From: an uncultured virus (IMG/VR IMGVR_UViG_3300005405_000007)
Taxonomy: Duplodnaviria > Heunggongvirae > Uroviricota > Caudoviricetes
Virus record (IMG/VR): IMGVR_UViG_3300005405_000007
Length of the DNA: 64,000 bases
Reading direction: 5' to 3' (one strand)
The notes below the pieces were generated by a model. The model saw only the letters and a program-made list of their open reading frames with translations. It was not told the DNA's origin and did no database searches. Made by a program: the position numbers and the translations under genes. Positions 5,900-56,436 of this stretch are shown in pieces (position 1 is the first letter of the stretch; every line of letters starts with the position of its first letter).

Positions 5900-5985
5900 T
5901 ACACTTCGAAATAGATATTTTATAGTCTTTTAGATATTGAAAGATAGAGAACGAATGAGTAAATGGAAGTATGGAGGAGATAAAA

Positions 5986-19200: not shown

Positions 19201-20349
19201 GATTCTCCAATTCAAATCAATGAAAGATGTTTTTGCCTCGAAGGAAAATGTGAGTTTGGAGGGTACTTAAGGATTGTCACATTAGATGACAAAGGATTTA
19301 ATACTATTGAGGTTAAAAATAATATCTTTAAGCCTATTGAAGAGAAAATTGAATCAATTAAATCCGAAGAGATTGTAGTTTCTAATATGGAATTAATAGA
19401 GAAACTAAGAGCGAATAGATATGTCAGAGAATCTAAATTCGGTCACATATCTTCTTTTAATTTTACAAAAGATGCATTCTATAAAAATATATGGGATGAA
19501 CAAACTATAAAAGCGAGAGGATTATTTTTTAATATTGAAACTGGAGAAGTGGTAGCTCGTAGCTATGAAAAATTCTTTAACGTCAATCAAAGAGAGAATG
19601 TCAAACTAGATAATCTTAAAAATGTATTCCAATTCCCTGTAACGGCATGGGTAAAATACAATGGGTTCTTAGGTTTAGTAGGGTATGATTCTAGTCGAGA
19701 TGAATTATTAATTAGCTCAAAATCAAATCCTAATAGTGAATTTGCAGGATATTTTAGAGATATATTTAATGATACTCTTACTCTAGACCAGCAATCAGAG
19801 ATAAAGGAATATCTCAAAGAACAAAAATCAACTTTAGTATTTGAAGTAATTGATCCCACTAATGATCCTCATATGATTAAATATATTTTCCCTCATTTAG
19901 TATTATTAGAAATTGTAGAGAATGATATCAATGAACCAAAGAAAAAATCATATGAAGAAATACAGTTGTTTTCAAATAAATATAATATACCTTTGAAAGT
20001 AAAAGCAAAGATATTAGATAATTGGAGAGAATTCTATCAATGGTATGAAGAAGTAACCGCAGATGACTATAAATATAAGGGGCAATATATCGAAGGATTT
20101 GTTTTAGAAGATAATGTTGGATTTATGACTAAAATAAAATTGCAGTATTATGGTTTTTGGAAACATATGAGAAGTGTTAAAGAGGACGTTTCTAGGAATG
20201 GATATACTAAATATACTAGTTCTTTAGCCACACCTCTAGCTAATGAGTTTTATGGATGGTTAAGGCATCAAACTAAAGAAGTATTAAGGAAAGATATTAT
20301 TACACTTCGAGAGATGTTTTATACTGAAAAAGGAGAATATAATAATTGA
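16228..20349 (+). CDS. Polynucleotide kinase / metallophosphoesterase / RNA ligase (Pnkp-like RNA repair enzyme) with two inteins; about 734 aa after splicing
   Basis: Spliced P-loop GAPA|CGKST, VVDATN; phosphoesterase GDLHG, GDYVDRG, GNHE, THGG, HGH; ligase ARGLF, YEKFFN, KYNGFLG, EGFV. Confidence 0.92.
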   Translation: MRILTLFRGAPACVDCDTEYFNGVEWKRISEYTEGDKVLQYNDDGSSELVSPLEYHKYKEDNLYLIQTQGVSQCVSLDHNLVYISSKGNINKKVFSDVYKQHLKNNHGFRGKFITTFNTYGNENSELNEFELRLTVAICADGNYPRDTNRCRIRIKKQRKIERIRFLLNKCNIDFEEKIYNETNVEGYINFMFKSPLRIKNFPHNWYNLSRKCLDIISDECIKWDGSINKQDNSIAYYTTNKQDADFIQYVFSSTGYKSGISIDEREDKPITYRVSKCSYNLVGISTKGREEYKDKIIKEYKTLDGHKYCFTVPSGMLVLRRDGHINITGNCGKSTFIKDNNLEQYALSADNIRLLLQSPIMTTDGRYGISQKNDKKVWELLFDILEQRMIRGEFVVVDATNSKTVELNRYKSMAETYRYRIICVDMTDVPIEVCKERNQNRKPDYKVVHDFVIDNMYARFESQKISSGVKAIKPEEFWDTITYSPLDFSNYKKIHHIGDLHGCNTVLQEYLGGELKEDELYVFVGDYVDRGIENVELLNYLFSVMDKLNVIFLQGNHECLAKGTEILTKDGWKVIENITKEDVVAQYDLISKEISFDNPIETIKKESNTIINFNSHNIRHKVTPNHDIIYKGEKVKAKDLLNKHNLEERDFTLWGYTNDNVVNIEDDWIRLLTWVIMDSTIVDNIKGNPNSIKKRIQFKFSKERKIKSVKQLLDRMDIPYTFQKAKMSDLNRVQPYYIRIYGEYARDIFNKIHNERLIPNEWKYFNQRQVSIFLDTLIKSDGYLKANNIEWRTINSQNIDIVQEMCVKNGIICKYDYKEGSGFSNGKYQYVASIFYYGSVNHPVTVTEEEYNNLTYCCTMSKGTLITRLDGRVIITGNCHLWDYSNDMPTKSKEFEQVTKRELNKLQIDKKKLRIFYRKLRQLAYYTYNNKVVVVTHGGISTIPERFEFLATEQLIKGVGEYKEMEMVNGRFLNSTPNNYYQIHGHRNVADSPIQINERCFCLEGKCEFGGYLRIVTLDDKGFNTIEVKNNIFKPIEEKIESIKSEEIVVSNMELIEKLRANRYVRESKFGHISSFNFTKDAFYKNIWDEQTIKARGLFFNIETGEVVARSYEKFFNVNQRENVKLDNLKNVFQFPVTAWVKYNGFLGLVGYDSSRDELLISSKSNPNSEFAGYFRDIFNDTLTLDQQSEIKEYLKEQKSTLVFEVIDPTNDPHMIKYIFPHLVLLEIVENDINEPKKKSYEEIQLFSNKYNIPLKVKAKILDNWREFYQWYEEVTADDYKYKGQYIEGFVLEDNVGFMTKIKLQYYGFWKHMRSVKEDVSRNGYTKYTSSLATPLANEFYGWLRHQTKEVLRKDIITLREMFYTEKGEYNN
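16264..17220 (+). mobile_element. Intein 1 (319 aa) with LAGLIDADG-type endonuclease, in the kinase P-loop
   Basis: Starts CVDCDTEYF, ends HINITGN|C; LTVAICADG block. Confidence 0.9.
17905..18864 (+). mobile_element. Intein 2 (320 aa) with LAGLIDADG-type endonuclease, after the phosphoesterase GNHE motif
   Basis: Starts CLAKGTEILTKDGW, ends RVIITGN|C; FLDTLIKSDG block. Confidence 0.9.
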
Positions 20350-21800: not shown

Positions 21801-22325
21801 ATGAAAAAATACATATGCCCAAATTGCGGAGCGTTATCAACATCTGAAGAATGGAATAGAGAAACTAAAAAACAATTTAAAAAATATGATATTGTAGACA
21901 TCATACCTATCGAACAAAATTCTAGTGGTAGTTATTTTAATTGTCCTAATTGTAAAGAGGAATTTAATATGAGTTTTATTAAACCAGAGGAATTTGAAAT
22001 TGTAGAATATTTTATCGTGAATTCAGAATTAAACCTAAGCCCAGGGAAGGTTGCTGCCCAAGTAGCTCATGTTGCAACAATAATTGCAGTAGAAAATAGT
22101 TTTAAACGATGGGGATTATTTTGGCAATGGTATGAATTAGATCAAAAGAAAATAATTTTGCGTGGTAAACAAAAGGATTTGGAGAAGTTAATTGACGCAG
22201 GGTTTTATTACATAAGGGATAATGGGTTAACCGAAATTCCTTATGGAAGTCTTACGGTGGTAGGATTGCCACCTATGCTTAAACAAGATGCGAAAAAGTA
22301 TGTGAAGAGATTACAATTACTATAA
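21801..22325 (+). CDS. Peptidyl-tRNA hydrolase (Pth2 family) with N-terminal zinc ribbon
   Basis: CPNC..CPNC, then LSPGKVAAQVAH, QKKIILR, IRDNGLTEI, TVVGLPP, LQLL. Confidence 0.88.
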   Translation: MKKYICPNCGALSTSEEWNRETKKQFKKYDIVDIIPIEQNSSGSYFNCPNCKEEFNMSFIKPEEFEIVEYFIVNSELNLSPGKVAAQVAHVATIIAVENSFKRWGLFWQWYELDQKKIILRGKQKDLEKLIDAGFYYIRDNGLTEIPYGSLTVVGLPPMLKQDAKKYVKRLQLL

Positions 22326-22608
22326 AATATAAATAGTAAAGGAGAAACATGCCATATAAAAATACTGAAGATAGAATGGGAATATATAAAATTACGTGTA
22401 TTATTACAGGTAAATTTTATATTAGGATCGCTTAATAAGTGTAAGAATTGTGAGAAGAACAAGAAAATAAGTTTTGAGACATATAGTGAAATTGTTAAAT
22501 ATATAGAAAATACTTGCAATGAATGTATGGGAAGATTATTGTAAATTATTTAAACAATCCTAGCAAACAAGTTTTTTAAAGGATTTAATATTTAAGGATG
22601 ATAATTAA

Positions 22609-23001
22609 ATGTTAGGCAAATATCTTAAAGACATCGGTATAAAAGAGGATAATACTCATCAAGGTTGGAATAAAGATGATCCTAGACAGGAGAAATGGTC
22701 GAAAGAAAGAGAAATATATGGTTTTGATGAAAAGGAAACTTGGTCGATGGATTTTACATTTAAATTATGGTTATATGAAAGATTATCTATGTATAATGAA
22801 GTAAATAGTATTGATACGTCTTTTCATAAATACGAGTTCAAAGGGAAAACAATTACATTTCAAGAATGTATTGATAGGATGTTAGATGGTTTAAAGATTT
22901 ATTTAACTATCGATGAATACAAAATGACAGATGCGCAAAAAGAGAAAGCTGATGATGTAGTTAGTTTGTTTGCTTTGTGTTTGGATAGTTTATGGTGGTA
23001 A
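22609..23001 (+). CDS. Hypothetical phage protein
   Basis: 130 aa ORF with RBS. Confidence 0.65.
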   Translation: MLGKYLKDIGIKEDNTHQGWNKDDPRQEKWSKEREIYGFDEKETWSMDFTFKLWLYERLSMYNEVNSIDTSFHKYEFKGKTITFQECIDRMLDGLKIYLTIDEYKMTDAQKEKADDVVSLFALCLDSLWW

Positions 23002-23135
23002 TAATTAGAATGTAATTTTGATTGCAAGTAATAGTTATACAATATAAATAAAATTTTTATAAAATAATAGGTATATTGGACAAATTATTGGTCATAATAC
23101 TAATCATAAGAAAATAAAAAGGAGTGATTAGTATT

Positions 23136-23543
23136 ATGAAACAAACAATAAATAATGTTCAAGCTCAAAAAGAGATTAAGAGGGGCGATATCTATATTGC
23201 AAATCTTCCCAACAGTAATGGATCTATCCAACAATTTAAGCGTCCCGTAGTGATAATTAGCAACAACGCCTGTAATCAATATTCCAATGTACTACATATA
23301 TGTCCTTTAACTTCTGTGACCACAAAATCAAAATTACCTACTCATATACCCATCAGTAGAAATTCTGGCCTAAAAATGGATTCTATTGCTCTCTGCGAAC
23401 AGTCCATGCCAGTCACGAGAGATTTGATTGAAGAAAAAATAGGACAATGCGATGAGGAAACTATGTTAAGAATTGATAGAGGAATCGGTATACAGTTTGG
23501 ATTGGTAGAATTAAGAAATAAAAATGGTGTAGTTTATGCATAA
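23136..23543 (+). CDS. mazF: MazF/PemK-family endoribonuclease; no adjacent antitoxin recognised
   Basis: IKRGDIYIANL..KRPVVIISNN..N..S..PLTS..KLPTHI..DSIALCEQ. Confidence 0.9.
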   Translation: MKQTINNVQAQKEIKRGDIYIANLPNSNGSIQQFKRPVVIISNNACNQYSNVLHICPLTSVTTKSKLPTHIPISRNSGLKMDSIALCEQSMPVTRDLIEEKIGQCDEETMLRIDRGIGIQFGLVELRNKNGVVYA

Positions 23544-23574
23544 TAAAAATAAAGAGGAGGAAATAAATTAAATA

Positions 23575-25191
23575 TTGACTAAGAAAACTAATAAGAAGAC
23601 AACAGAACAATATAAACAAGAATTAGAAGAATATAATTTAAAATATGATACAAATATAAAGTTAAAAGAAGGAGTTGAATATATTGGTGCTAATACTAAA
23701 ATACTACATACTTGTACGTGCGGCAAGGATTGGTTAGTCAGTCCTTCTGGTATTATAAATAGAAAATCTAAAAGTAGTTGTGGATTGTGTTATACATTCG
23801 CAGAATGGGGGATAGATAATTTAGGAGAAGATTTTCTTAAAGAATATTGGGATTATGAGAAGAATAATGAATTAGGCATTGATCCTTGGAAAATTAATTA
23901 TAATAATTACAAAAAATTTTATATCTTTTGTAGAAAGAAAAACTATCATGGAAGTTATCAAATTAGTGGTTCGGATTTTATAAGAGGTAATAGATGTAGT
24001 TATTGTAAAGGACAAAATTCTGTACATCCTAAAGATAGTTTTGGACAATTTTTAATAGATTCGTTTGGTGTTACTGCGTTAGAATTATATTGGGACTATG
24101 ATAAAAATACAATTGACCCTTTTAAATACACTAAATATACTAATAGAAAAGTTTGGATTAAATGCCAAGAAAAAGATTACCATGGGAGTTATGATATTCT
24201 TTGCGGAGAATTTATTAGTGGAGGGAGGTGTGGGTATTGTAATTCGCGTGTAAAAGTACATAAATATGATAGTTTAGGATATTTATATCCTCAAACAATA
24301 GAAATTTGGTCTGATAAAAATAATAAATCTCCATATGAATATACCCCAGGAAGCAGTACAAAAGTTTGGTGGAAATGTAAAGAGTGTAAACATGAAGATT
24401 ATCCACAAATAATATATAGTGCAAAAAATTGTAATTTTGGATGTCCTGAATGTGTAAGAGAAAAAGTAGAGTCTAGAATGGCAACAACGCTTAAACAAGT
24501 ATTTAAGCATGAAGATCATGATACAAAATGGGAATATGATATAGGATTTAGAACAGATAAAAATGGTGTAAGCAAATATGATATTTATGTTCCAAGATTA
24601 AATCTATTAATAGAATGTCAAAGCGAATATCATGATGATGAAATACATATGGCGCGAGATAAACTTAAAAAGCAATTTGCAATAGATAATAAATATAATT
24701 ACATAGATTTAGACCACAGAGATTATTCTCCTTTGGAAGCAATACAGATGTTTTTCCCATATATTAAAGAAATGCCAGAATATATTGATGATAGTAAAAA
24801 TACAAGAAGAGATTGGGACGTAGAAGAAGCACAAAGATTATTAGATAATGGTTATAATTTTGATGAAGTTGCTGAATATGTAGGAGCAACTAAAGGTGCT
24901 ATAAGTTATTCAATTTGGAACAATATCTTAATTAAACCAGATGATTATCATCAAACAGGAACTATAAAAATTATTTGTTTATCTAAGGATTATAAATTTG
25001 TTAAACAATATAATTCTGTGAGAGATGCAACAAAAGATTTAGGTCTTGCGAATAACTCTGCAATTAGTAGTTGTTTGACCAAGAGGATAAGATCAGATAC
25101 TAATAAAGTTCGTGAGTTTGCAAAAGGTTATAGATGGATGTATTTGGTAGACTATGAGAATATGATTAAAAAAGATGATGAACCTCCGTAA
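23575..25191 (+). CDS. Zinc-ribbon-repeat putative homing endonuclease with a Vsr/DUF559-like nuclease and NUMOD1-like C-terminus
   Basis: Repeated YWDY.KN..DP..KVWxxC..H..CxxC units; YDIYVP..LIECQSEYH; YNSVRDATKDLG..AISSC..AKGYRW. Confidence 0.7.
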   Translation: MTKKTNKKTTEQYKQELEEYNLKYDTNIKLKEGVEYIGANTKILHTCTCGKDWLVSPSGIINRKSKSSCGLCYTFAEWGIDNLGEDFLKEYWDYEKNNELGIDPWKINYNNYKKFYIFCRKKNYHGSYQISGSDFIRGNRCSYCKGQNSVHPKDSFGQFLIDSFGVTALELYWDYDKNTIDPFKYTKYTNRKVWIKCQEKDYHGSYDILCGEFISGGRCGYCNSRVKVHKYDSLGYLYPQTIEIWSDKNNKSPYEYTPGSSTKVWWKCKECKHEDYPQIIYSAKNCNFGCPECVREKVESRMATTLKQVFKHEDHDTKWEYDIGFRTDKNGVSKYDIYVPRLNLLIECQSEYHDDEIHMARDKLKKQFAIDNKYNYIDLDHRDYSPLEAIQMFFPYIKEMPEYIDDSKNTRRDWDVEEAQRLLDNGYNFDEVAEYVGATKGAISYSIWNNILIKPDDYHQTGTIKIICLSKDYKFVKQYNSVRDATKDLGLANNSAISSCLTKRIRSDTNKVREFAKGYRWMYLVDYENMIKKDDEPP

Positions 25192-25238
25192 TAATACATA
25201 AATAAAATAATAAATAATAAAGGAGAAAATAATATAGA

Positions 25239-25802
25239 ATGATTGAAACTGTTTTCTTATCTTTTTTAGTTGCCAAATGGAATAACTATAAAATACTTCC
25301 TATTTTTAAAAAATGGAGTATTTACCCTGTTATGTTTATGGTGCTTCTATACATTTATCTTGAATCGACAATTTGGCAAGGTGATTATTCTTTAGTTAAA
25401 TATACATATTTATTTAAAACTGTTTATTTAAGTTGTTTCTTATTATTGGCGATATCTTATAATAAAATGAAGTTATATTTTTGTTTTATTCCTCTTGTTT
25501 GGATAGGTAGTATACTTAATACAATTGCAATAAGAGCTAATTCAGGGAAAATGCCAGTATTTTTTTCTAACTCATGGGCAACTGGATATGCAAAACATGA
25601 TATGTTTGTTAAAGCATTACCGTATGGAGACTATCATATAATGGGAGATGAATTTACAAAAATGATACCGCTTTGTGATGTGTGGGATTTCGGATGGTGT
25701 TGTATGTCGCCAGGGGATTTAATATTCAGATCGTTTGTATTTATAATTACTTACAATTCCATAAAAGCGTCCAACCAAATACATATAATAAACAAAATAT
25801 AA
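25239..25802 (+). CDS. DUF5317-like membrane protein
   Basis: Hydrophobic; GSILN..ANSGKMPV and LCD..SPGD motifs. Confidence 0.7.
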   Translation: MIETVFLSFLVAKWNNYKILPIFKKWSIYPVMFMVLLYIYLESTIWQGDYSLVKYTYLFKTVYLSCFLLLAISYNKMKLYFCFIPLVWIGSILNTIAIRANSGKMPVFFSNSWATGYAKHDMFVKALPYGDYHIMGDEFTKMIPLCDVWDFGWCCMSPGDLIFRSFVFIITYNSIKASNQIHIINKI

Positions 25803-25811
25803 AATTATTTA

Positions 25812-25841
25812 TTGACTTATATACTTTGCATATGGTATAAT
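25812..25841 (+). promoter_or_regulatory. SigA promoter for receptor-agrD
   Basis: TTGACT-18-TATAAT with extended TG. Confidence 0.7.
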
Positions 25842-25893
25842 TATCCTAAGATAAATAATAAGATAAATAATAAGAGATAGGGAGTAGATACAT

Positions 25894-26724
25894 ATGCAAA
25901 GTACAATTAATGCCTTATTAAACATGTTTTTAGTAAGTTTACCAGAAGAATTGTTCGTTGTAGCAATAGTATTAATAGGTATAAGTAGAGATGATTTATT
26001 AGATATCAGAATGTGGAAAGATAATATAAAATGGGTCGCTTTACCAGCAATTGGAATGTCTTTTATAATAAGTTTTGCAAGATTAACAAATATTTCAAAA
26101 TCTATTGCCCAAATAACTGGTATACTAGTATTATATTTATTAACATTAGTTGTTATAAAAAATAATAATTTACTTCAAGAGAAGATTAAATACTTTAAAG
26201 CATTGTTTTATACAATATTAGGAATTTTCATTATTTCAATATTAGAATGCTACTACCCGTTAATATTATCTCTCACAAAAACAAATATCTTATACATAAA
26301 CTCCAACTTTATTTTGAATTTTTTATGTTCATTACCAGCAAGAGTAATAGAATATTCTATATTGACATACTTAATAGTAAAAAAAAGTGAAGATGTAAAA
26401 ATTAAGTTATTTGATATAATACTAAAAAATAGTTTCTTAAAAAGATCAATGTTTAGTTTATTGATAGGTATAATGATTACAATGATTTACTTAATTAAAC
26501 TAATAGGAATAGATTTAATTTTAATAAATTTATCGTTTTTTGAACAATTAATTATAGTAGTTATGATGTTTATTATCCCGACGATTACTATAACATTTAT
26601 ATTATTAATAGTTAATTATATCCTAAAAGTTGAAAAAAGAATACACCAGACATACGAAAATCTTGCTACGCAGGATATAGTAATGGATGATGTAAAAATT
26701 AATGAAAAAGGAGGTGAATTCTAA
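25894..26724 (+). CDS. Multi-pass membrane protein resembling an AgrC/VirS sensor domain but lacking the kinase domain
   Basis: About 7 hydrophobic segments and a short C-terminal tail; no H-box or GHKL; stop overlaps the agrD start (TAATG). Confidence 0.6.
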   Translation: MQSTINALLNMFLVSLPEELFVVAIVLIGISRDDLLDIRMWKDNIKWVALPAIGMSFIISFARLTNISKSIAQITGILVLYLLTLVVIKNNNLLQEKIKYFKALFYTILGIFIISILECYYPLILSLTKTNILYINSNFILNFLCSLPARVIEYSILTYLIVKKSEDVKIKLFDIILKNSFLKRSMFSLLIGIMITMIYLIKLIGIDLILINLSFFEQLIIVVMMFIIPTITITFILLIVNYILKVEKRIHQTYENLATQDIVMDDVKINEKGGEF

Positions 26725-26843
26725 TGAAAAACAAATATACTATTATTGCAGGATGTCTTATCACAATTGCTACAGTATGTTCCTTATGTTTAGCTTCCGC
26801 AATGTGGAGTTATCAACCAGAAACCCTTAAATGTTTCGAATAA
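26724..26843 (+). CDS. agrD: AgrD-like cyclic autoinducing peptide precursor (39 aa, not in ORF track)
   Basis: MKNKYTIIAGCLITIATVCSLCLASAMWSYQPETLKCFE; AAGGAGGTG RBS; clostridial [CS]xxxx-[YH]QPE pattern; agrB 1 kb downstream. Confidence 0.88.
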   Translation: MKNKYTIIAGCLITIATVCSLCLASAMWSYQPETLKCFE

Positions 26844-26855
26844 GTTCATATTACA

Positions 26856-26883
26856 TATAGGGAAGGCTACGGTCTTCCCTATA
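26856..26883 (+). terminator. Hairpin after agrD
   Basis: TATAGGGAAG-8nt-CTTCCCTATA. Confidence 0.6.
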
Positions 26884-26921
26884 ATCATAAAATAATGTAA
26901 TGACAAAAAATAAAATATATA

Positions 26922-26951
26922 TTGACATACATATCCATTGTAAGATATAAT
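26922..26951 (+). promoter_or_regulatory. Consensus SigA promoter for HTH-mazF-agrB
   Basis: TTGACA-18-TATAAT. Confidence 0.7.
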
Positions 26952-27012
26952 TATATTATTAAATACCGAATATTGAAATATCTTACTAAAAATAAAAAGG
27001 ATGTGTATTGAT

Positions 27013-27804
27013 ATGTTTAACAAATTAATTACTAGGAAATCTAATACTGAGGAAAATGCTAAAAAAGATTTTAAGAAACTTGCAAATTACGTTATACTTG
27101 CAAAAGGTAATAGATCAATTGATAATTTTGCAGCAGATTGTAAGGTTAGCGGGGATTATATGGAGGGTGTAATTAAGACTAAAATGTCTACATACCCAGA
27201 TATAACATTTCTAAAGGTAATTTCTGATAATTCTCAAGGGCGAGTTTCGTTTAAGGATTTGACTTTGGCTTGTGGATATTCTAATTATACAAATAATGAT
27301 TTAGAAAAAATTAGAAATATAAAAATAGAACGTGGAGGAATATATTTTTGTAATTTTTCTGACAGTGGGATTGATTCAGAGGTGATAGGACATCGACCTG
27401 TGCTCGTGGTGCAAAATCCAAAAGGTAATTTATTCAGTAGTAACACAAAGGTTTTAGCAATAACTAGTCGTGTAGGCAGTAAACCGCCATTACCGACTCA
27501 TGTTTTTATAGGAAAGGAGCATGGTTTAAGATGTGATTCTATCATTTGTTGTGAATTAGAAGACACAATCAGTAAAAGAAGATTAATTTCAGGATCAGGA
27601 GTAGTAGAAAAAGTAGCAGAATGTTCGAAAGAATTAATGATGAAAGTTGCCGTTGGACTTGGTAAGGCAGACGGATATATTCCTTTAGATGTTCCTGAAA
27701 AGTTTGCTATTGAAGTTCTAGAAACTTTTAACAAAGAGAGAACACAAAAAACATTTCAATATCAAAATAACTATAATACAGGGAGGCAAGTAGCATTTGC
27801 CTAA
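27013..27804 (+). CDS. XRE-like HTH fused to a MazF/PemK endoribonuclease domain
   Basis: N-terminal AKGNRSIDNFAADCKVS..YPDITFLKVI..VSFKDLTLACGY; C-terminal IERGGIY..SEVIGHRPVLVVQN..AITS..LPTHV..DSIICCE; alternative start 27001. Confidence 0.82.
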   Translation: MFNKLITRKSNTEENAKKDFKKLANYVILAKGNRSIDNFAADCKVSGDYMEGVIKTKMSTYPDITFLKVISDNSQGRVSFKDLTLACGYSNYTNNDLEKIRNIKIERGGIYFCNFSDSGIDSEVIGHRPVLVVQNPKGNLFSSNTKVLAITSRVGSKPPLPTHVFIGKEHGLRCDSIICCELEDTISKRRLISGSGVVEKVAECSKELMMKVAVGLGKADGYIPLDVPEKFAIEVLETFNKERTQKTFQYQNNYNTGRQVAFA

Positions 27805-27820
27805 ATTGAAAGGAGTTTAA

Positions 27821-28528
27821 ATGAATCTAATTCAAATTATATCAAATAATTTAGCTCATAAAATGGTAAAGAAAGTACCATTAGATCAAATTGAATATGC
27901 TTGGGGATGGATCGCAGGGGTATTTCCACAACTCTCTCATAAGTTTAATATTAAAAAAATAAAAACCACTGAAGAACTTATAAGCGTATATAGTCTAGCA
28001 TTCATGTTTCCTGTTGGTGCGGTATTTAAAGGTTTATTATTAGTATTGTTGTCATTAATCTTGGGAGTCTTTTCACCTGCCATTGTAGTAGTCTTAACTT
28101 TTATGTCTTTAAGACCAATGGCAGGTGGATATCATTTTAAAACATATAATAAATGTACAGTAATATCTTTAATTCAATTCATTACAACATCGCTAATAGT
28201 AAAATACACTCTCCAATATTGGCCATTTTTAGGAATTTGGTATTTATTTATTTTTTGTGTTGTTATGACATTATATATAGTTTATCGCTATATTCCAAGA
28301 GACACGCCAAATAAACCAATTGCAGAACAATTAGAACGTCATAAATTTAAACGATGGTCATTATATTATTTATCCATATGGGCCGTATTAATGACCATCT
28401 TCTTGCTCTTTAATATAAAAATAATTGTCATATCAAGTTGTTTCGGTTTACTTTTAGAGTTGCTAAGTATTTCTAATATAGGTTATAATTATATCTATCC
28501 CTTACTAGACTCAAAACAAAAACCTTAA
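27821..28528 (+). CDS. agrB: AgrB accessory gene regulator B (autoinducing-peptide processing membrane peptidase)
   Basis: LRPMAGGYHFKTYNKC catalytic His/Cys motif, PRDTPNKPI, multiple TM segments. Confidence 0.92.
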   Translation: MNLIQIISNNLAHKMVKKVPLDQIEYAWGWIAGVFPQLSHKFNIKKIKTTEELISVYSLAFMFPVGAVFKGLLLVLLSLILGVFSPAIVVVLTFMSLRPMAGGYHFKTYNKCTVISLIQFITTSLIVKYTLQYWPFLGIWYLFIFCVVMTLYIVYRYIPRDTPNKPIAEQLERHKFKRWSLYYLSIWAVLMTIFLLFNIKIIVISSCFGLLLELLSISNIGYNYIYPLLDSKQKP

Positions 28529-28665
28529 GACAACGATACCCTTAAACCAAAATCCATCCAACCAATAACAACACAACAAAACAAGACCAAACATAATCAA
28601 ATAACATATATCTTTAAGTGAATTATATCTTGCTTTTTTGTTTATACTATTATATAATATAATTA

Positions 28666-28717
28666 TGATACATATTGATACATATTGATACATATTGATA
28701 CAAATTACATGTATCAA
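28666..28717. repeat. Four tandem 10-bp repeats ending in a palindrome; putative operator
   Basis: (TGATACATAT)x3, then TGATACA-AATTACA-TGTATCA, just upstream of the RBS of 28746. Confidence 0.75.
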
Positions 28718-28745
28718 TTAAATTAATATCCAAGGAGGAATAAAC

Positions 28746-30095
28746 ATGAAGCAAGACCGTCAAAAACTTGAAGATGTTTTAGATTTAATCGTCGAAGAAT
28801 ATTCAGTTGATACTAAGATTCAAGAAAAGGTTATTTCTAAGTTGATTGAAAAAGGAATTAGTCGAGGTAGAACTACTGGTATATTTACCAAAGTAACTCC
28901 ATTAGTATATCTCACAGAAAATGAATTATGTTTATTTGTAAAACATCTTTATGAATTTACACATGAATTAAAAATCAAGCCAAATGAGTGGTTTACTGAT
29001 ATTGAATTATCATATGCAGATTCATATCAAAAAACCGAAGAAGAAAAAGTAAAATATATTATGTTACACAATGTTGACCAAATCAGCGAGTCTCAATGGT
29101 TGTGTACAAAAGAAACTTATCAAAATATTGGTTTGTATATGGGAAATGGATTATTAACATATAACCCAAACACCCAAAGACCACTCCAGAAAAGGAAAAG
29201 TGGAAACAAAATAATTGAATCCATTGATATTGACCCAGATAAAGTTGCTGAAATCGCCAACTCTATGTTAAATAATACGTTTTGCCCCAATGCCATAACA
29301 TGGAATATACGCAAGATAAAAGGCATTCAGAAATTTAAATATGATAGTAAAGCAAGAACCTTATTAATTGAACCTGATGGTATATCTACGTCAGTGGACA
29401 TAATTGACGGAGCAAATCGGACAGGGGGAATGCTAAAATGCATTGAAAAAAGTAAGGACATTCAGAGGGTAACTAGTATTTATATTCATCATGTTACAGA
29501 AGAAAGAGCGAATGAAATAATTGAACAAGAAAGTTTGGCAGCACCCATCCCACCGGAATCCATCCAGTATAAAAGTTCTAGCAATATTAATATGTTAACT
29601 GCAAGATCAATTAATGAAAAGCAAAAGAAAAATGAAATGTTTAACCGCATTGGATTAAATGAACAAGAGCTAAAAGTTGAAAATAAACTAGTTACGTTTG
29701 ACACTTTGTCAAAAACGATTGATTATGTATATGATTTAAAAAATTTACCTATTACAGAGTCAGAAAATGTAGAAGAGTTTTTAATAAAACTTTTTAATAT
29801 TTGTATTGGTGTAAATTATGAATCTTTTAACAGTAAATTAACTGAAGCGAGAGAGAATTCATATGTTTCATCAAACAATATGTTTATTGGATATGTTGTT
29901 TTAGGTGAATTAGTTAAACAAAAATATGGTGATGATTGGAAAAATCAATTGACTAAAATATTAAAAACTTTAGACTTTAGCAAAACAAACGATATTTGGA
30001 AGAAAATTGGTATTGAAAACAATGTCAACAAAAAAACAATGGATAAAATATCTGACTATTTTAAATCTATTGTTGCTCAATGGGAGGTTCAATAA
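28746..30095 (+). CDS. SPbeta YopQ/SroE-like protein (DndB/DGQHR-like fold)
   Basis: YNPNTQR, PNAITWN, DIIDGANRT (DGQHR-like); size and position before an MrpR-like gene match the SPbeta repressor operon. Confidence 0.65.
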   Translation: MKQDRQKLEDVLDLIVEEYSVDTKIQEKVISKLIEKGISRGRTTGIFTKVTPLVYLTENELCLFVKHLYEFTHELKIKPNEWFTDIELSYADSYQKTEEEKVKYIMLHNVDQISESQWLCTKETYQNIGLYMGNGLLTYNPNTQRPLQKRKSGNKIIESIDIDPDKVAEIANSMLNNTFCPNAITWNIRKIKGIQKFKYDSKARTLLIEPDGISTSVDIIDGANRTGGMLKCIEKSKDIQRVTSIYIHHVTEERANEIIEQESLAAPIPPESIQYKSSSNINMLTARSINEKQKKNEMFNRIGLNEQELKVENKLVTFDTLSKTIDYVYDLKNLPITESENVEEFLIKLFNICIGVNYESFNSKLTEARENSYVSSNNMFIGYVVLGELVKQKYGDDWKNQLTKILKTLDFSKTNDIWKKIGIENNVNKKTMDKISDYFKSIVAQWEVQ

Positions 30096-30096
30096 A

Positions 30097-31080
30097 ATGG
30101 ATCATAAATTATTTAATGAAGATCGTAAAAATTGCTTCTTAAATGAGAAATATCCAAATGAATCAACCAGATCAACAAACACTTCTATTTTAAGAAGCGT
30201 AGGAAGATTTGAGTATGAACTAGATAAAGATTTGTGTAGTTTTAGTTACGAAGAAATTAAAGACTTATTAATTGGAATGAAAAAGAAATCTCTTAGATCA
30301 ATGGGTGTAGCTTATGCAATTATTATGCAATATTTAGACTGGTGCTGTTTGGATAAACACTATTCTTCAATGAATGTTTTGAAACTAGTCAACAAGGAAG
30401 ACTTAAAAAAATACATCCATAAAGTTGCTCAAAAAAATTCATTTATTTCAAGAGATCAAATGTATGACTACTGCAACAGACTCCACAACTACGTTGACAA
30501 AGCATTAATAGCATTACTATACGAAGGAATAAGAGGCAGAACTAAAGAGGGATTTTCCTATGAAGAAATAAGAAATCTCAAAAAGACTGATCTTATTCCA
30601 GAATTTAATATAGTGAATGTTATTAAAGACCCCGATGACTTAATTAAAAATCCTTCACCAAGAAAAGTTCAAGTGGATCAAAGAACTATGGATATCCTAA
30701 TAGCAGCATCTAAGGAAGAATATTATCATAAATCAAATGGTGATGCAACAGACACATTTTCTATTTTACCACTAAAGGATACCCCCTTTATTATTAGGTC
30801 TATGGACGTATTCTTTAGCGATGATGATAGAATGACTCCAGGAAATATTAGTTCAAGATTTAGAAATTTTAGAAGTTATTTAAATGTAAAGTTCTTAACA
30901 CCAACTCTTATATTTAAAAGTGGTTTATTAGATAAATGCTTATCAATGGAGAAAGAATTAGGGGAATTGAAGCCGGATCACTTTAAACAACTATACAGGA
31001 ATTTAGAATTGGATGAAAGAAATGGCAACTCTTTAAAGGAAATGTATGACAGTTACAAAAGTAGTCTAACCCCAAAGTAA
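30097..31080 (+). CDS. MrpR/YopR-like phage repressor with tyrosine-recombinase fold, probably catalytically inactive
   Basis: FEYELDKDLCSFSYEEI SAM-like N-domain; ALIALLYEGIRG..EEIRNLK; HxxR replaced by PTLIFKSG; GGAGG RBS before ATG 30097. Confidence 0.75.
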   Translation: MDHKLFNEDRKNCFLNEKYPNESTRSTNTSILRSVGRFEYELDKDLCSFSYEEIKDLLIGMKKKSLRSMGVAYAIIMQYLDWCCLDKHYSSMNVLKLVNKEDLKKYIHKVAQKNSFISRDQMYDYCNRLHNYVDKALIALLYEGIRGRTKEGFSYEEIRNLKKTDLIPEFNIVNVIKDPDDLIKNPSPRKVQVDQRTMDILIAASKEEYYHKSNGDATDTFSILPLKDTPFIIRSMDVFFSDDDRMTPGNISSRFRNFRSYLNVKFLTPTLIFKSGLLDKCLSMEKELGELKPDHFKQLYRNLELDERNGNSLKEMYDSYKSSLTPK

Positions 31081-31096
31081 TATTTGGGGTTAGATT
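31063..31096 (+). terminator. Hairpin closing the repressor operon
   Basis: AGTCTAACCCCAAA-6nt-TTTGGGGTTAGATT. Confidence 0.65.
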
Positions 31097-31194
31097 CCCT
31101 AACCAAAATTTAAAATTGTCATAAGGTAAAAAATAAAATTAGTTAAAAAGTAATATTTTGTCGAAAGACTGACTAATAAAGGGGAAAGAAAAAG

Positions 31195-31680
31195 TTGATA
31201 TTAAGTATGAAAGGTGGGATAATGTATGTACACATAGAACGAACTACAGTTCTAAAACAATGTGTAGAAAGGAACAAGTGTTTTGGTTTCACTATAAAAA
31301 TAAGAGGAGAAGATGTAATGAGGAAAATAGAAGAGTATGCGCTTAAGGACAGTAAGGGGAATTATGTGGGGATAAATTCTATTACATTTGACGAAATCAC
31401 TAAGCAAGATATATATTCTTCTTCAGAACAGCTTATAAATGGATTTTATACATACTCTAGCGAATTAGATGCAATCACATGTTTGCATGTTCTCCGAGAT
31501 AAGGGAATTAAAATAAAATTTGGTATACAATTCCATATAGAAAAAATTGATATTATGGAAGTAATGATTAAAGAGCATAAGATGGGGATAAAAAAATGTC
31601 CATTTAAATATGAAATAATAAAAGGAGGAATGACGATGGATGATTATATTAAAAGAAAAATTGAATATATGGGGCAATAG
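31195..31680 (+). CDS. Hypothetical protein (true start possibly downstream)
   Basis: ORF; GAGGAG RBS before MRKIEE. Confidence 0.5.
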   Translation: MILSMKGGIMYVHIERTTVLKQCVERNKCFGFTIKIRGEDVMRKIEEYALKDSKGNYVGINSITFDEITKQDIYSSSEQLINGFYTYSSELDAITCLHVLRDKGIKIKFGIQFHIEKIDIMEVMIKEHKMGIKKCPFKYEIIKGGMTMDDYIKRKIEYMGQ

Positions 31681-31746
31681 CCCCTTCTCTCTTATATTTC
31701 AACTAATCAAACAAAAATAAAATACATACGAAAGAGGAAACTAAAA

Positions 31747-32295
31747 TTGAAGAAAACTAAACTAATCACAGCACGAAGATTCGGAATCTTTGTGTGTATC
31801 TTCACTACTTTAGTTGTTAGTCAAGCAGGTAATCATAATATTATTGAAAACAATATTAAAACAGAGAAATATAAGTTTAAAACAAATTTTCCAATTAATG
31901 AAATCCATAAAACGCAACATTATACTACAAAGAAACCAATTCCATCAATTGAAGTCATAGTGTCGGCGTATGACTTGTCTTACCAATCTTGTCAGAAATC
32001 AAGAAATAATTCACAGTATGGTATCACTAGTTCTGGATTTGATTTAAAAGGGCATACATTATCTTCAGCAAGAGTAATTTCAACAGATCCTAAAATTATC
32101 CCAACTGGCAGCAAAGTAAAAATTGTTTTTAATGATCCTAAATATACAAAGTATAATAATGTGTATTATGCATTGGATCAAGGTGGTTTAATAAAAAATA
32201 ACCACATCGATTTGTTTATTGGTGATTTCAGAAAGTCTACTAAAATGGCAAATATATTTGGAGTTACAACCGCTACTGTAACAATACTAAAATAA
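31747..32295 (+). CDS. Secreted 3D-domain (MltA-like) cell wall protein
   Basis: N-terminal hydrophobic segment; SAY, GITSSG, ISTDPKIIPTGSKV, ALDQGG, HIDLF. Confidence 0.85.
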   Translation: MKKTKLITARRFGIFVCIFTTLVVSQAGNHNIIENNIKTEKYKFKTNFPINEIHKTQHYTTKKPIPSIEVIVSAYDLSYQSCQKSRNNSQYGITSSGFDLKGHTLSSARVISTDPKIIPTGSKVKIVFNDPKYTKYNNVYYALDQGGLIKNNHIDLFIGDFRKSTKMANIFGVTTATVTILK

Positions 32296-35376: not shown

Positions 35377-35715
35377 ATGGACGATGAACTAGTAGAATAT
35401 TTTGTTGTGAATTCTGAATTAAACATGAGTTGTGGCAAGATTGCTGCACAAGTTGGTCATGTTGCAACAATGATTGCGATAGGCAAAAACAACAAACGAT
35501 GGGATTTGTTTTGGCAATGGTATGAATCAGATCAAAAGAAAATTATTTTACGAGGAAAACAAAAAGATTTGGAAAAATTAATTGGGCAAGGATTTTATTT
35601 TATAAGAGATAATGGGTTAACCGAAATTCCTTATGGAAGTCTTACGGTGGTAGGATTGCCACCTATGTTAAAAAGCGACGCACAGAAATTTGTGAAGAGA
35701 TTGCAGTTGCTATAA
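35377..35715 (+). CDS. Peptidyl-tRNA hydrolase (Pth2 family), second copy
   Basis: MSCGKIAAQVGH, QKKIILR, IRDNGLTEI; 60 bp identical to the first copy. Confidence 0.9.
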   Translation: MDDELVEYFVVNSELNMSCGKIAAQVGHVATMIAIGKNNKRWDLFWQWYESDQKKIILRGKQKDLEKLIGQGFYFIRDNGLTEIPYGSLTVVGLPPMLKSDAQKFVKRLQLL

Positions 35716-56403: not shown

Positions 56404-56436
56404 TAATAAGAAAATAATTAAAGAGGAGAAGTGTTA

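What the first reader, a model, noticed from the sequence alone, without database searches (positions are those of the whole stretch)
23136..31096. Agr-type cyclic-peptide signalling joined to phage MazF nucleases and an SPbeta-type repressor operon: candidate new lysis-lysogeny communication system
Seen: gene order mazF - [endonuclease] - DUF5317 membrane protein - kinase-less multi-TM protein - agrD - HTH-mazF - agrB - repeat operator - YopQ-like - MrpR-like, with internal SigA promoters and terminators. Established: in SPbeta-group Bacillus phages the repressor operon (yopQ/sroE, yopR/mrpR) lies next to the arbitrium genes aimR-aimP-aimX, which act by tuning the host MazEF. agr genes are known in a C. 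difficile phage (phiCDHM1) but, to my knowledge, not coupled to a lysogeny switch. Inference: an exported cyclic peptide replaces arbitrium here. No RRNPP/TPR receptor is visible in the window, and the phage carries its own MazF effectors.
Basis: partly seen in the sequence, partly recalled or inferred. Interest (0 to 1): 0.95.

Follow-up and report, generated by a model that had tools for sequence, protein, structure and literature searches.

The report
Phage Agr peptide module beside repressor
A group of large Clostridium phages carries, right next to its lysogeny repressor genes, a complete kit for making a ring-shaped signal peptide, a likely membrane sensor without a kinase, and two RNA-cutting toxins, which looks like a new way for phages to talk to each other when choosing between killing and dormancy.

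Summary
Window 23136-31080 encodes, all on the + strand, MazF, a DUF4379/HNH endonuclease, DUF5317, a 276-aa 7-helix membrane protein (mTM), a 39-aa AgrD, an XRE-HTH–MazF fusion, AgrB, a 10-bp repeat cluster, a YopQ homologue and an MrpR homologue. The same module was found in 11 more loci, 10 viral stretches and one Clostridium MAG contig. It sits next to two YopQ/MrpR lineages that are only about 25% identical.

AgrD shows 11 different ring sequences in 12 loci. Two loci with 100%/99.7% identical YopQ/MrpR have mTMs only 43% identical.

mTM is new. It has no Pfam, PDB or fold match, but its profile resembles AgrC sensor domains (hhalign 85.8%, controls ≤1%). It also sits directly upstream of AgrD genes in bacterial chromosomes.

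Five phage records, two of them complete, have no AimR, AgrC kinase, LytTR or MazE. Each has exactly two MazF genes.

Best reading (about 0.45): a kinase-less Agr-type peptide system takes the place of arbitrium and acts through phage MazF. Function is inferred; nothing was tested at the bench.

The parts
23092..23139 (.). Perfect 15-nt inverted repeat (TCATAATACTAATCA / TGATTAGTATTATGA). The mazF1 ribosome-binding site lies in its loop and the start codon in its 3' arm.
   Evidence: (I12); function not tested
23136..23543 (+). MazF1, a free-standing PemK/MazF endoribonuclease. The Arg-Pro and Thr/Ser positions I recall as catalytic in MazF are present. The C-terminal tail ends in ...VVYA.
   Evidence: Pfam PF02452 9.7e-25; phrog_1936; tail conserved in 10 of 11 loci
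23575..25191 (+). DUF4379 (treble-clef zinc finger x3) / HNH-type endonuclease. Probably a mobile homing-type insertion, because its position and presence vary among related loci.
   Evidence: variable position
25239..25802 (+). DUF5317 membrane protein
   Evidence: Pfam 1.9e-15. BLAST-detected in 9 of the 10 distinct further loci; not detected in L040. In bacteria it is often next to, or fused with, MASE9+HD_5 proteins.
25812..25841 (+). Promoter-like site TTGACT-18-TATAAT with an extended TG, upstream of mTM-agrD
   Evidence: 11 of 12 matches
25894..26724 (+). mTM, a 276-aa seven-helix membrane protein with a conserved cytoplasmic C-terminal helix. Candidate kinase-less AgrC-type sensor.
26724..26843 (+). 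AgrD precursor (39 aa). The predicted ring is S-A-M-W-S, just before the conserved YQPETLKC tail.
   Evidence: no HMM hit
26856..26883 (+). Conserved 12-bp hairpin directly after agrD, with no U-tract
   Evidence: RNA fold -21.3 kcal/mol, z -5.6; kept in 11 loci, with compensatory changes at 3 of its 11 aligned pairs
26922..26951 (+). Consensus sigma-70 promoter TTGACA-18-TATAAT upstream of HTH-mazF-agrB
   Evidence: 12 of 12; TTGACA -35 hexamer kept in 9 of 11 loci
26940..26986 (.). Inverted repeat GTAAGATAT / ATATCTTAC. The left arm overlaps the -10 hexamer. Candidate operator.
   Evidence: second helix, largely kept in 10 of 11 loci. The DNA-operator reading is inference.
27013..27804 (+). 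HTH-MazF fusion: an XRE-type helix-turn-helix domain (about residues 11-91), an EndoA-type MazF domain (about 103-224) and a tail ending in ...QVAFA.
27821..28528 (+). AgrB peptidase/cyclase with the GGYHFKTYNKC motif (His and Cys seven residues apart)
   Evidence: Pfam 3.3e-33; motif found in 11 of 11 loci
28665..28717 (.). Four direct TTGATACAWAT repeats at a 10-bp period plus one inverted copy, 29 bp upstream of the yopQ start
28746..30095 (+). YopQ/SroE homologue (DndB-like)
   Evidence: phrog_5732 4e-62; tblastn to phi3T and c-st
30097..31080 (+). MrpR/YopR/SroF-type integrase-fold repressor homologue
   Evidence: Pfam MrpR_N_CB 7.8e-18 and MrpR_C_cat 1.6e-8
31065..31094 (.). GC-rich 12-bp hairpin at the end of the mrpR homologue

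Best explanation
This is a phage-encoded Agr-type peptide communication cassette. It occupies the slot beside the SPbeta-type repressor operon that arbitrium occupies in Bacillus phages, and it most likely biases the lysis-lysogeny or induction decision.

**Proposed steps**
1. Two strong promoters drive mTM-agrD and HTH-mazF-agrB.
2. AgrB cleaves AgrD after the ring segment and closes a five-residue ring. The ring is a Ser lactone in most relatives and a Cys thiolactone in one. DUF5317 may help mature or degrade the peptide.
3. The peptide accumulates outside the cell as infections or lysogens increase.
4. The peptide is read by mTM, which is an AgrC-like seven-helix sensor with no kinase.
5. 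mTM passes the signal through its conserved cytoplasmic loop 1 and C-terminal helix to a cytoplasmic partner. The best candidate is the co-inherited XRE-HTH-MazF protein.
6. HTH-MazF and MazF1 have no MazE and carry an SsrA-like tail, so they may be short-lived. They change expression of the yopQ-mrpR operon, or cell physiology, by DNA binding and/or RNA cleavage. This would favour lysogeny, much as host MazF does under arbitrium control.

**Shown here:** gene content, order, conservation, motif integrity, and co-variation of the cassette.

**Inferred:** steps 2 to 6 and the direction of the effect.
For: **Synteny**
- The module is conserved in 11 further loci: L004, L005, L006, L034-L042. L037-L039 are identical in all listed rows. 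Protein identities go down to 27-40%.
- It lies next to two YopQ/MrpR lineages that are 24-28% identical.
- Its position matches aimR-aimP-aimX upstream of yopQ-yopR in phi3T.

**Signal diversity**
- AgrD shows 11 distinct rings in 12 loci, between a conserved leader and tail.
- L006 and L040 have YopQ 100% and MrpR 99.7% identical. Their mTM is 43%, HTH-MazF 61% and AgrB 65% identical, and their rings are SWLWS and SWFWL.
- DNA identity between these two loci is 94.6% only from position 5091 of L006 onwards.
- L036 and L037 have HTH-MazF 92% identical but mTM 43% identical, with different rings.
- Ring similarity tracks mTM (rho 0.78), HTH-MazF (0.73) and AgrB (0.72). It does not track MazF1 (0.02) or YopQ (-0.07).

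**Sensor**
- The mTM profile against clostridial AgrC sensor domains gives hhalign 85.8%, E 5.4e-6, over 116 columns. Four control comparisons gave 0.1-1.0%.
- The mTM core (helices 2-7) is variable, with mean pairwise identity 0.32-0.42. The N-terminus (0.66), loop 1 (0.73) and C-terminal helix (0.57) are conserved.
- mTM genes lie directly upstream of AgrD-like ORFs in 6 bacterial loci.

**Missing canonical parts**
- 0 of 4 phage records have AimR; the phi3T control was positive.
- 0 of 5 have HATPase_c_5, 0 of 5 have LytTR and 0 of 5 have MazE. All 5 have exactly two MazF genes.

**Enzymes look intact**
- The AgrB His/Cys motif is present in 11 of 11 loci. The MazF Arg-Pro motif is present in 11 of 11 MazF1 proteins, and the corresponding Arg in 10 of 11 HTH-MazF proteins.

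**Regulatory DNA**
- The hairpin, promoter and inverted repeat between agrD and HTH-mazF are conserved across 11 loci.

**Precedent**
- Arbitrium in phi3T acts through host MazF (abstract of PMC10769878).
Against: - There is no experiment and no expression data.
- Conserved order could simply reflect common descent within one colinear phage family.
- Phage c-st has a MazF gene next to yopQ-yopR without any agr gene. Psychrobacillus phage Perkons has yopP-yopQ-yopR with neither annotated upstream. The repressor operon therefore needs neither.
- The mTM-agrD pair occurs in bacterial chromosomes with no HTH-MazF or repressor nearby. The sensor's ancestral output must be something else.
- The AgrC-sensor similarity is moderate: 85.8%, covering 116 of about 270 columns. 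A single bacterial family member scored 0.1% against the AgrC profile.
- None of the best 150 of 224 profile hits is longer than 326 aa, so no kinase-fused relative links the two families.
- The mTM-agrD gene pairing would fit a peptide maturation or export factor equally well.
- The hairpin after agrD has no U-tract.
- Promoter-like sites are not enriched overall.
- The record is 56% complete and its host is unknown.
Confidence: 0.45

Rival explanations
1. The module is a prophage accessory ('moron') unit. It is a density-regulated toxin or defence system, or it manipulates host quorum sensing, and the agr genes and MazFs serve superinfection exclusion, abortive infection or host physiology. 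Its place beside the repressor operon only reflects expression in lysogens.
For: PHROGs files MazF under 'moron, auxiliary metabolic gene and host takeover'. mTM-agrD pairs and AgrB are ordinary chromosomal genes in Clostridia. phiCDHM1 carries agr genes with no known link to its switch (abstract of PMC3901668). c-st has MazF without agr at the same place.
Against: No PADLOC defence model matches any of 10 module proteins. The whole cassette, with its regulatory DNA, is conserved next to the repressor operon in 12 of 12 loci, including across cassette swaps. Peptide diversification between phages with near-identical repressors fits phage kin recognition better than tuning to a host receptor. 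No MazE was found, so this is not a standard toxin-antitoxin defence pair.
Confidence: 0.25
2. mTM is not a sensor. It is a maturation, export or immunity factor for the AgrD peptide, doing a job like that of MroQ in S. aureus. The phage only produces a signal, which is read by a host AgrC-type kinase or blocks it.
For: The mTM stop overlaps the agrD start, and the pair is kept in bacteria even where AgrB is elsewhere. Operons agrB-mTM-agrD and agrB<>mTM-agrD exist. The family has conserved charged residues in predicted helices: E18, E19, D37, E118, R150, N241. A second membrane step in peptide biosynthesis is known from S. aureus (search listing of PMC9388083).
Against: The profile resembles AgrC sensor domains, not AgrB. 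The family has no conserved His or Cys and no Pfam protease match, either in the window's mTM or in 20 distant members. The variable helix core with conserved cytoplasmic faces is what a specificity-bearing receptor would show. Some phages carry a second mTM paralogue with no peptide gene after it.
Confidence: 0.18
3. There is no functional coupling. The two MazF genes are addiction or stability modules, the agr genes are a passenger cassette, and gene order is conserved only because these phages are close relatives.
For: All loci come from a small set of metagenomes plus one MAG.
Against: Protein identities go down to 27-40%, and the repressor modules are about 25% identical across lineages, yet the order is kept while endonuclease insertions and a second mTM come and go. 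The cassette recombines as a unit beside an unchanged repressor operon. The intergenic regulatory DNA is more conserved than the flanking proteins.
Confidence: 0.1

Closest known systems
Arbitrium (aimR-aimP-aimX) of SPbeta-group Bacillus phages
   Same: A phage-encoded secreted peptide signal lies immediately upstream of the yopQ-yopR (sroE-sroF) repressor genes. In phi3T the output runs through a MazF RNase (abstract of PMC10769878). Peptides differ between related phages. A hairpin follows the peptide gene; a section heading in PMC10769878 says aimX is regulated by a transcriptional terminator.
   Different: No AimR/RRNPP receptor is present. The peptide is an AgrD-type ring made by AgrB, so it would be sensed from outside the cell rather than after import. 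The candidate receptor is a membrane protein. MazF is phage-encoded, present in two copies, one fused to an HTH domain. No AimX or YopP homologue was seen in the module.
agrBDCA quorum sensing of staphylococci and clostridia
   Same: AgrB has the His/Cys motif. AgrD has a leader, a five-residue ring and a [YH]QP tail. A hypervariable unit spans the peptide and the sensor.
   Different: No AgrC kinase domain and no AgrA/LytTR in 5 phage records. The gene order is sensor-peptide-(HTH-MazF)-AgrB. The ring nucleophile is Ser in 11 of 12 loci.
agr3 locus of C. difficile phage phiCDHM1
   Same: A phage carries agrB and agrD (abstract of PMC3901668).
   Different: By that abstract, phiCDHM1 has a full AgrC histidine kinase and is a myovirus related to other C. 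difficile phages; the abstract reports no link to its switch. Here the kinase is absent, and the cassette sits beside an SPbeta-type repressor operon together with two MazFs. AgrB of this window has no tblastn match in 50,697 phage records.
MazEF / EndoA type II toxin-antitoxin
   Same: Both MazF domains are close to Bacillus EndoA/MoxT (4hke, E 7.1e-26; Foldseek 2.9e-11, TM 0.89 on the target).
   Different: No MazE in 5 phage records. One copy is fused to an N-terminal XRE HTH domain, which in 31 of 32 homologue clusters occurs with PF02452. Both copies carry a conserved C-terminal ...V-A-[YF]-A tail.
SPbeta repressor operon (sroA-F; YopQ/SroE, MrpR/YopR/SroF)
   Same: YopQ and MrpR homologues are adjacent and probably co-transcribed, with repeated DNA upstream.
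   Different: No YopP-like integrase gene lies between the cassette and yopQ. The operator repeats differ from those of relatives L004 and L005. Binding was not tested.

Membership tests
AgrB (PF04647) | Pfam model above its gathering score | tested here: met
   115 bits against a cut-off of 23
AgrB (PF04647) | Catalytic His and Cys seven residues apart (H77/C84 in S. aureus, numbering recalled) | tested here: met
   GGxHx6C found in 11 of 11 loci; His and Cys invariant in the 16-sequence alignment A6
AgrD precursor | Short ORF with a hydrophobic leader, a Cys/Ser nucleophile five residues before the cleavage site, and a conserved acidic/Pro-rich C-terminal tail | tested here: met
   Alignment of 11 sequences: A-S-x4-[YH]QP[KEQ]x[PL]xC; L004 has C-L-A-A-W. 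The position of the cleavage site is taken by analogy, recalled from C. perfringens AgrD.
AgrD precursor | Match to a curated AgrD model | tested here: not met
   No Pfam or NCBIfam hit at E<=0.01 / <=1. Short, divergent peptides often miss such models.
AgrD precursor | A ring peptide is actually produced | not testable with these tools
   Needs mass spectrometry
AgrC sensor kinase (HPK10) | Polytopic N-terminal sensor domain homologous to AgrC | tested here: inconclusive
   hhalign 85.8%, E 5.4e-6, 116 columns, controls 0.1-1.0%. One bacterial family member against the AgrC profile scored 0.1%.
AgrC sensor kinase (HPK10) | DHp/HATPase_c_5 kinase module | tested here: not met
   mTM ends after one cytoplasmic helix. 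PF14501 absent from 5 of 5 phage records. No fused form among the best 150 profile hits.
agrBDCA system | AgrA/LytTR response regulator | tested here: not met
   PF04397 absent from 5 of 5 phage records, two of them complete
Arbitrium | AimR receptor (PF22871) | tested here: not met
   0 of 4 phage records; phi3T control 3.3e-118. A search with the phi3T AimR protein found 0 of 5.
Arbitrium | Peptide controls lysogeny | not testable with these tools
   Needs a cultivable phage-host pair
MazF/PemK | PemK fold and model | tested here: met
   Pfam 9.7e-25 and 4.3e-18; Foldseek to 4hke/1ne8 with TM 0.88-0.89 on the target
MazEF toxin-antitoxin pair | Adjacent MazE antitoxin | tested here: not met
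   PF04014 absent from 5 of 5 records. The upstream 130-aa ORF has no Pfam match. Other antitoxin folds were not excluded.
SPbeta MrpR/SroF repressor | MrpR N-terminal and C-terminal Pfam domains | tested here: met
   65.4 and 34.9 bits, cut-off 27 each
SPbeta MrpR/SroF repressor | Binds repeated operator DNA and represses lytic genes | not testable with these tools
   Only a repeat cluster upstream of yopQ was seen
YopQ/SroE | Sequence homology to SPbeta-group YopQ | tested here: met
   tblastn 1e-11 over 80% of the query to phi3T_96, which is annotated as similar to yopQ; phrog_5732 4e-62

The most novel reading that the evidence does not exclude
A previously undescribed kind of Agr signalling has three parts: AgrB, AgrD, and a seven-helix AgrC-like sensor with no kinase and no response regulator. 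In large clostridial SPbeta-like phages this sensor is wired directly to an HTH-MazF ribonuclease and so sets the lysis-lysogeny decision. This would be a ring-peptide, outside-sensing counterpart of arbitrium in which the phage brings its own short-lived MazF effectors. The same sensor-peptide pair in bacterial chromosomes would be an unrecognised kinase-independent quorum-sensing route in Clostridia.
Probability: 0.3. Interest if true: 0.92.

Novelty: new variant of a known kind. Interest (0 to 1): 0.82.

Why it matters
Peptide control of lysis versus lysogeny by phages is known only for arbitrium, an imported linear peptide read by a cytoplasmic RRNPP receptor. An Agr-type ring peptide read at the membrane, placed in the same genomic slot and linked to MazF, would carry two implications. 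First, the 'communication slot' beside the SPbeta-type repressor would be modular and would have been filled more than once. Second, MazF would be a recurrent output of such decisions.

The finding also defines a candidate kinase-less AgrC-like sensor family: 224 representatives at 50% identity in the profile search, paired with agrD in phages and in bacteria. This bears on an open question: how AgrBD-only loci without AgrCA are sensed in Clostridia.

My five literature searches and a term search inside a 2026 review of phage communication found no description of this arrangement. DUF5317 occurs in none of the papers searched.

Tried and rejected
- **Complex prediction of mTM with HTH-MazF:** no answer, score 0.00 in both runs, controls not run. 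This is not evidence either way.
- **Fold of mTM:** AF2 pLDDT 80. Foldseek against PDB gave nothing at E<=0.001. VIA wide gave a best Z of 7.5, with only generic helical matches. The PDB sequence profile search gave 0 hits. Pfam gave nothing above cut-off on 20 distant members.
- **Idea that the phage avoids EndoA-type UACAU sites, rejected.** TACATA is over-represented on the sense strand (87 observed, about 35-37 expected) and not on the other strand (29 against 40-46). The only cluster of three or more TACAT per 100 nt is the repeat at 28669-28689. Whether these repeats are MazF sites or a protein operator is open, because the cleavage specificity of these MazFs is unknown.
- **Rfam on 22500-31800:** 0 matches at E<=1.
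- **PADLOC on 10 module proteins:** 0 matches.
- **Public runs:** one DNA run of a groundwater metagenome held all sampled words (possibly the source sample). No RNA holder was listed.
- **Megablast of the region, and tblastn of AgrB, against isolated phages:** no match.
- **Scan with a mixed MrpR alignment:** I looked at phage Perkons instead.
- **The listing of cluster members:** unavailable, so source names and accessions of mTM relatives are unknown.
- **The look-up of encoding contigs:** closed, so the genomic context of most of the 224 mTM family representatives could not be examined.
- **Earlier findings of this scan:** three look-ups, nothing.
- **ESM Atlas:** only each protein's own cluster and unnamed clusters.
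- **Paper supplements:** none were opened.

Full report
**What the window is**

The window is the reverse strand of bases 30350-94349 of a 94,410-bp viral record that CheckV rates 56% complete. It has 26-31% G+C and positive GC skew throughout, and nearly all ORFs are on the + strand. It has no near-identical relative among 50,697 isolated phage records. Other genes in the window include several DNA methylases, an NAD-dependent DNA ligase, RNA ligases, Thg1 and two PTH2 genes. None of the 57 other ORFs scanned matched a TPR/RRNPP receptor family at E<=1e-4.

**Check of the observation**

- MazF, 23136-23543: PF02452, 9.7e-25.
- A DUF4379/HNH endonuclease, 23575-25191.
- DUF5317, 25239-25802.
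- A 276-aa membrane protein with no family match, 25894-26724, here called mTM.
- A 39-aa ORF, 26724-26843, whose start overlaps the mTM stop.
- A 263-aa protein, 27013-27804, with a C-terminal MazF domain (4.3e-18).
- AgrB, 27821-28528: 3.3e-33.
- A YopQ homologue, 28746-30095: phrog_5732 4e-62; tblastn hits to phi3T_96/yopQ and c-st CST029.
- An MrpR homologue, 30097-31080, matching both MrpR Pfam domains.

Between agrB and yopQ lie four direct copies of TTGATACAWAT at a 10-bp period plus one inverted copy. This is the only such cluster in 64 kb.

The 'HTH' label has no Pfam support. Structure prediction does support it. In the AF2 model (pLDDT 72 overall, 80-90 over residues 20-85), residues 11-91 align to XRE-type HTH domains: 2ofy_B Z 10.2, C.AhdI Z 9.1, and SinR, ImmR, P22 c2 and HigA among the 50 rows.

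Promoter-like sites are not enriched overall (60 against 66.7 in shuffles). The two best matches, however, sit just upstream of mTM and of HTH-mazF.

**Is the small ORF an AgrD?**

No curated model matches it. The equivalent ORFs of 10 related loci align with it as a hydrophobic leader, an invariant Ala-Ser, four variable residues, then [YH]-Q-P-[KEQ]-x-[PL]-x-C. By analogy with clostridial AgrD (recalled, not tested), cleavage before the [YH]QP tail would give these five-residue rings:
- SAMWS (this window), SAMWT, SAFWT, SWLWS, SWFFA, SYFIS, SWAFS, SWFWL, SWLGA and SWLFS.
- CLAAW in locus L004.

A conserved Ser nucleophile implies a lactone. AgrB keeps the GGxHx6C motif in 11 of 11 loci.

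**Synteny**

Searches with YopQ, AgrB and the mTM alignment found ten viral stretches and one contig of a Clostridium sp. MAG. L037, L038 and L039 are identical in all listed rows. L043 is the same contig as L005.

Every locus has MazF, (endonuclease), DUF5317, mTM, AgrD, HTH-MazF, AgrB, YopQ and MrpR in this order, with these exceptions:
- In L004, AgrB lies before DUF5317.
- DUF5317 was not detected in L040.
- L036 ends before MrpR.

A second mTM paralogue lies between AgrB and YopQ in L004, L036, L037-L039 and L042, with no peptide ORF after it.

Identities to the window fall to 28% (mTM), 38% (HTH-MazF) and 27% (AgrB). The YopQ/MrpR genes fall into two lineages that are 24-28% identical. 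The endonuclease comes and goes and changes position, as a mobile insertion would.

In phi3T, the genes upstream of yopP-yopQ-yopR are aimR-aimP-aimX plus three small genes. In phage c-st they are a 220-aa MazF and a soluble protein of unknown function. In phage Perkons no communication or MazF gene is annotated there. The slot beside the repressor genes therefore varies between phage groups.

**The cassette behaves as a specificity unit**

- L006 and L040 have YopQ 100% and MrpR 99.7% identical. Their mTM is 43%, HTH-MazF 61% and AgrB 65% identical, and their rings differ.
- At the DNA level these two loci are 94.6% identical from L006 position 5091 to the end. Upstream they are about 70% identical or not alignable.
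- L036 and L037 have HTH-MazF 92% identical but mTM 43% identical.
- The window and L005 have mTM 91% and HTH-MazF 80% identical, with rings SAMWS and SAMWT.
- Over the 55 pairs, ring similarity correlates with identity of mTM (Spearman 0.78), HTH-MazF (0.73) and AgrB (0.72). It does not correlate with MazF1 (0.02) or YopQ (-0.07).

These correlations are confounded by relatedness, so they show linkage and not co-adaptation. The pattern resembles, as I recall it, the hypervariable agrB-agrD-agrC region of staphylococci.

**What mTM is**

- It has 26 close clusters, none carrying a Pfam domain.
- A profile search found 224 representatives. None of the best 150 is longer than 326 aa, so no kinase-fused form was seen.
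- The AF2 model (pLDDT 80) has seven long helices plus a C-terminal helix. Lys-rich loops suggest an N-out, C-in topology; this is my reading of the sequence.
- Neither fold search nor a PDB sequence search gave a convincing match.
- I took eight AgrC-type kinases found next to agrB/agrD in clostridial genomes and aligned their first 210 residues. hhalign of the mTM profile against them gave probability 85.8%, E 5.4e-6, over 116 columns (mTM 42-168). mTM or AgrC sensors against AgrB or DUF5317 profiles gave 0.1-1.0%. This is suggestive, not conclusive.
- Among the ten closer phage mTMs (L004 left out), the N-terminus (0.66), cytoplasmic loop 1 (0.73) and the C-terminal helix (0.57) are conserved. 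Helices 2-7 are variable, at 0.32-0.42.

In a sample of 399 scored genomes of the class of the MAG, 7 have an mTM homologue. An AgrD-like ORF lies directly downstream in L015, L016, L017 and L021. It does so too in L032 and L022, which were found next to AgrB. None was seen in L018, L019 or L020.

AgrB is adjacent only in L021, L022 and L032. In the other genomes it lies elsewhere; 5 of 5 genomes searched have AgrB. mTM is therefore a third, unrecognised partner of AgrB and AgrD in bacteria as well.

**The MazF proteins**

- The fusion's MazF domain is closest to Bacillus EndoA/MoxT (7.1e-26).
- The Arg of the G-x-R-P motif is kept in 10 of 11 fusions and in all 11 MazF1 proteins.
- The N-terminal HTH domain occurs in 32 homologue clusters, 31 of which carry PF02452. 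The fusion is therefore obligate.
- Each of five phage records, two of them 100% complete, has exactly two MazF genes and no MazE_antitoxin, HATPase_c_5 or LytTR match. AimR was absent from the four of them searched, while the phi3T control was found.
- Both MazFs end in a conserved tail...[VI]-x-[YF]-A, with N or R added in some. This holds for 10 of 11 MazF1 and 10 of 11 fusions, with L004 ending ASLA.
- The tmRNA tag of the MAG that holds L006 is ANDNLALAA. The resemblance suggests a protease degron and short-lived toxins. This is inference.

**Regulatory DNA**

The 170 bp between agrD and HTH-mazF are better conserved than the proteins around them. They contain three elements:
- A 12-bp hairpin, 26856-26883. 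RNA fold -21.3 kcal/mol, z -5.6. Compensatory changes are found at 3 of its 11 aligned pairs (5 of the 20 pairs of the whole predicted structure).
- A consensus promoter, 26922-26951.
- An inverted repeat, GTAAGATAT/ATATCTTAC, whose left arm overlaps the -10 hexamer.

The repeat looks like an operator, perhaps for the fusion's own HTH domain. The hairpin has no U-tract.

L004 and L005 carry a different conserved promoter region with another palindrome upstream of yopQ. This fits operator-repressor co-divergence.

**DUF5317**

DUF5317 was found in 60 of 300 clostridial genomes sampled. Of 12 neighbouring ORFs scanned, 4 were MASE9+HD_5 or HD_5 proteins of about 425-450 aa that overlap the DUF5317 gene, and one more was a truncated HD_5 protein. 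Open frames of 570-633 aa suggest fused forms. The invariant residues are G90, N94, N101, M105, P106, H133, D147, S157, G159 and D160. Its role here is open; peptide maturation or hydrolysis is only a guess. No paper in the library mentions DUF5317.

**Mechanism and rivals**

My preferred reading (0.45) is an Agr-type communication cassette that replaces arbitrium and acts through phage MazF. mTM would be the sensor and HTH-MazF the likely transducer.

The main rivals are:
- A density-regulated accessory or defence module, 0.25.
- mTM as a maturation or export factor, with sensing left to the host, 0.18.
- Mere inherited order, 0.10.

The precedent that arbitrium works through host MazF comes from the abstract of PMC10769878. 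The description of the sroA-F operon and SroF comes from the introduction of the preprint 10.1101/2025.11.27.690993. The phiCDHM1 agr genes come from the abstract of PMC3901668.

**Novelty**

Five full-text searches and a term search in a 2026 review ('agr' 0, 'MazF' 0 occurrences) gave no report of an agr cassette beside an SPbeta-type repressor, of a kinase-less AgrC-like partner of AgrD, or of an HTH-MazF fusion in this role. Subscription journals are not covered by the library.

I rate it a new variant of a known kind (phage peptide communication). Interest is high because the parts are intact, widely conserved and directly testable.

Noticed in passing
window 16228-20349: A 1373-aa ORF combines an AAA_33 kinase-like domain, a metallophosphatase and a T4-type RNA ligase (Rnl1) domain, with LAGLIDADG-type insertions that look like inteins. 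An end-healing and sealing enzyme of this kind acts, as I recall, on 2',3'-cyclic phosphate and 5'-OH RNA ends, which as I recall are the ends that MazF leaves.
   Followed up: no
window 5971-6759, 21801-22325, 35377-35715, 56431-57327: The window holds further RNA/tRNA repair or rescue genes: a Thg1-like tRNA-His guanylyltransferase, two PTH2 peptidyl-tRNA hydrolases and a second RNA ligase. Together with the two MazFs, this suggests a phage that both cuts and mends RNA.
   Followed up: no
window 23092-23139: A perfect 15-nt inverted repeat has the mazF1 ribosome-binding site in its loop and the start codon in its 3' arm. It could be a translational or transcriptional control element.
   Followed up: no
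window, whole + strand: TACATA is about 2.4-fold over-represented on the sense strand (87 observed, 35-37 expected) but not on the antisense strand (29 against 40-46). It is about twice as dense in intergenic DNA as in coding DNA. Unexplained.
   Followed up: partly
L006 and L040: These two loci are 94.6% identical in DNA from within HTH-mazF onwards (YopQ 100% identical). Across MazF1-DUF5317-mTM-agrD they are about 70% identical or unalignable. This looks like a natural exchange of the signalling cassette.
   Followed up: partly
L045-L064 (bacterial DUF5317 loci): In Clostridia, DUF5317 is often translationally coupled to, or fused with, membrane MASE9+HD_5 (HD-GYP-type) proteins. I found no paper on this family.
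   Followed up: partly
L003 (phage c-st 22935-27129 of the record): In phage c-st, a 220-aa MazF with a C-terminal extension and a soluble 218-aa protein of unknown function lie directly upstream of its yopQ and yopR homologues. There is no agr gene.
   Followed up: partly
window 50665-51255; 1044-2444, 35771-36550, 37309-37938, 43166-44005: A protein carries a T7 gp5.9-like RecBCD-inhibitor domain, and there are four DNA methyltransferase genes. This is an anti-restriction and anti-defence load typical of large phages.
   Followed up: no
window 31195-31680: A 161-aa protein with no family match lies directly after the mrpR homologue and is conserved in L004 and L005. In phi3T the antirepressor Sar (phi3T_99; section headings of the preprint) is encoded two genes after yopR. 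Whether this protein plays that part was not tested.
   Followed up: no
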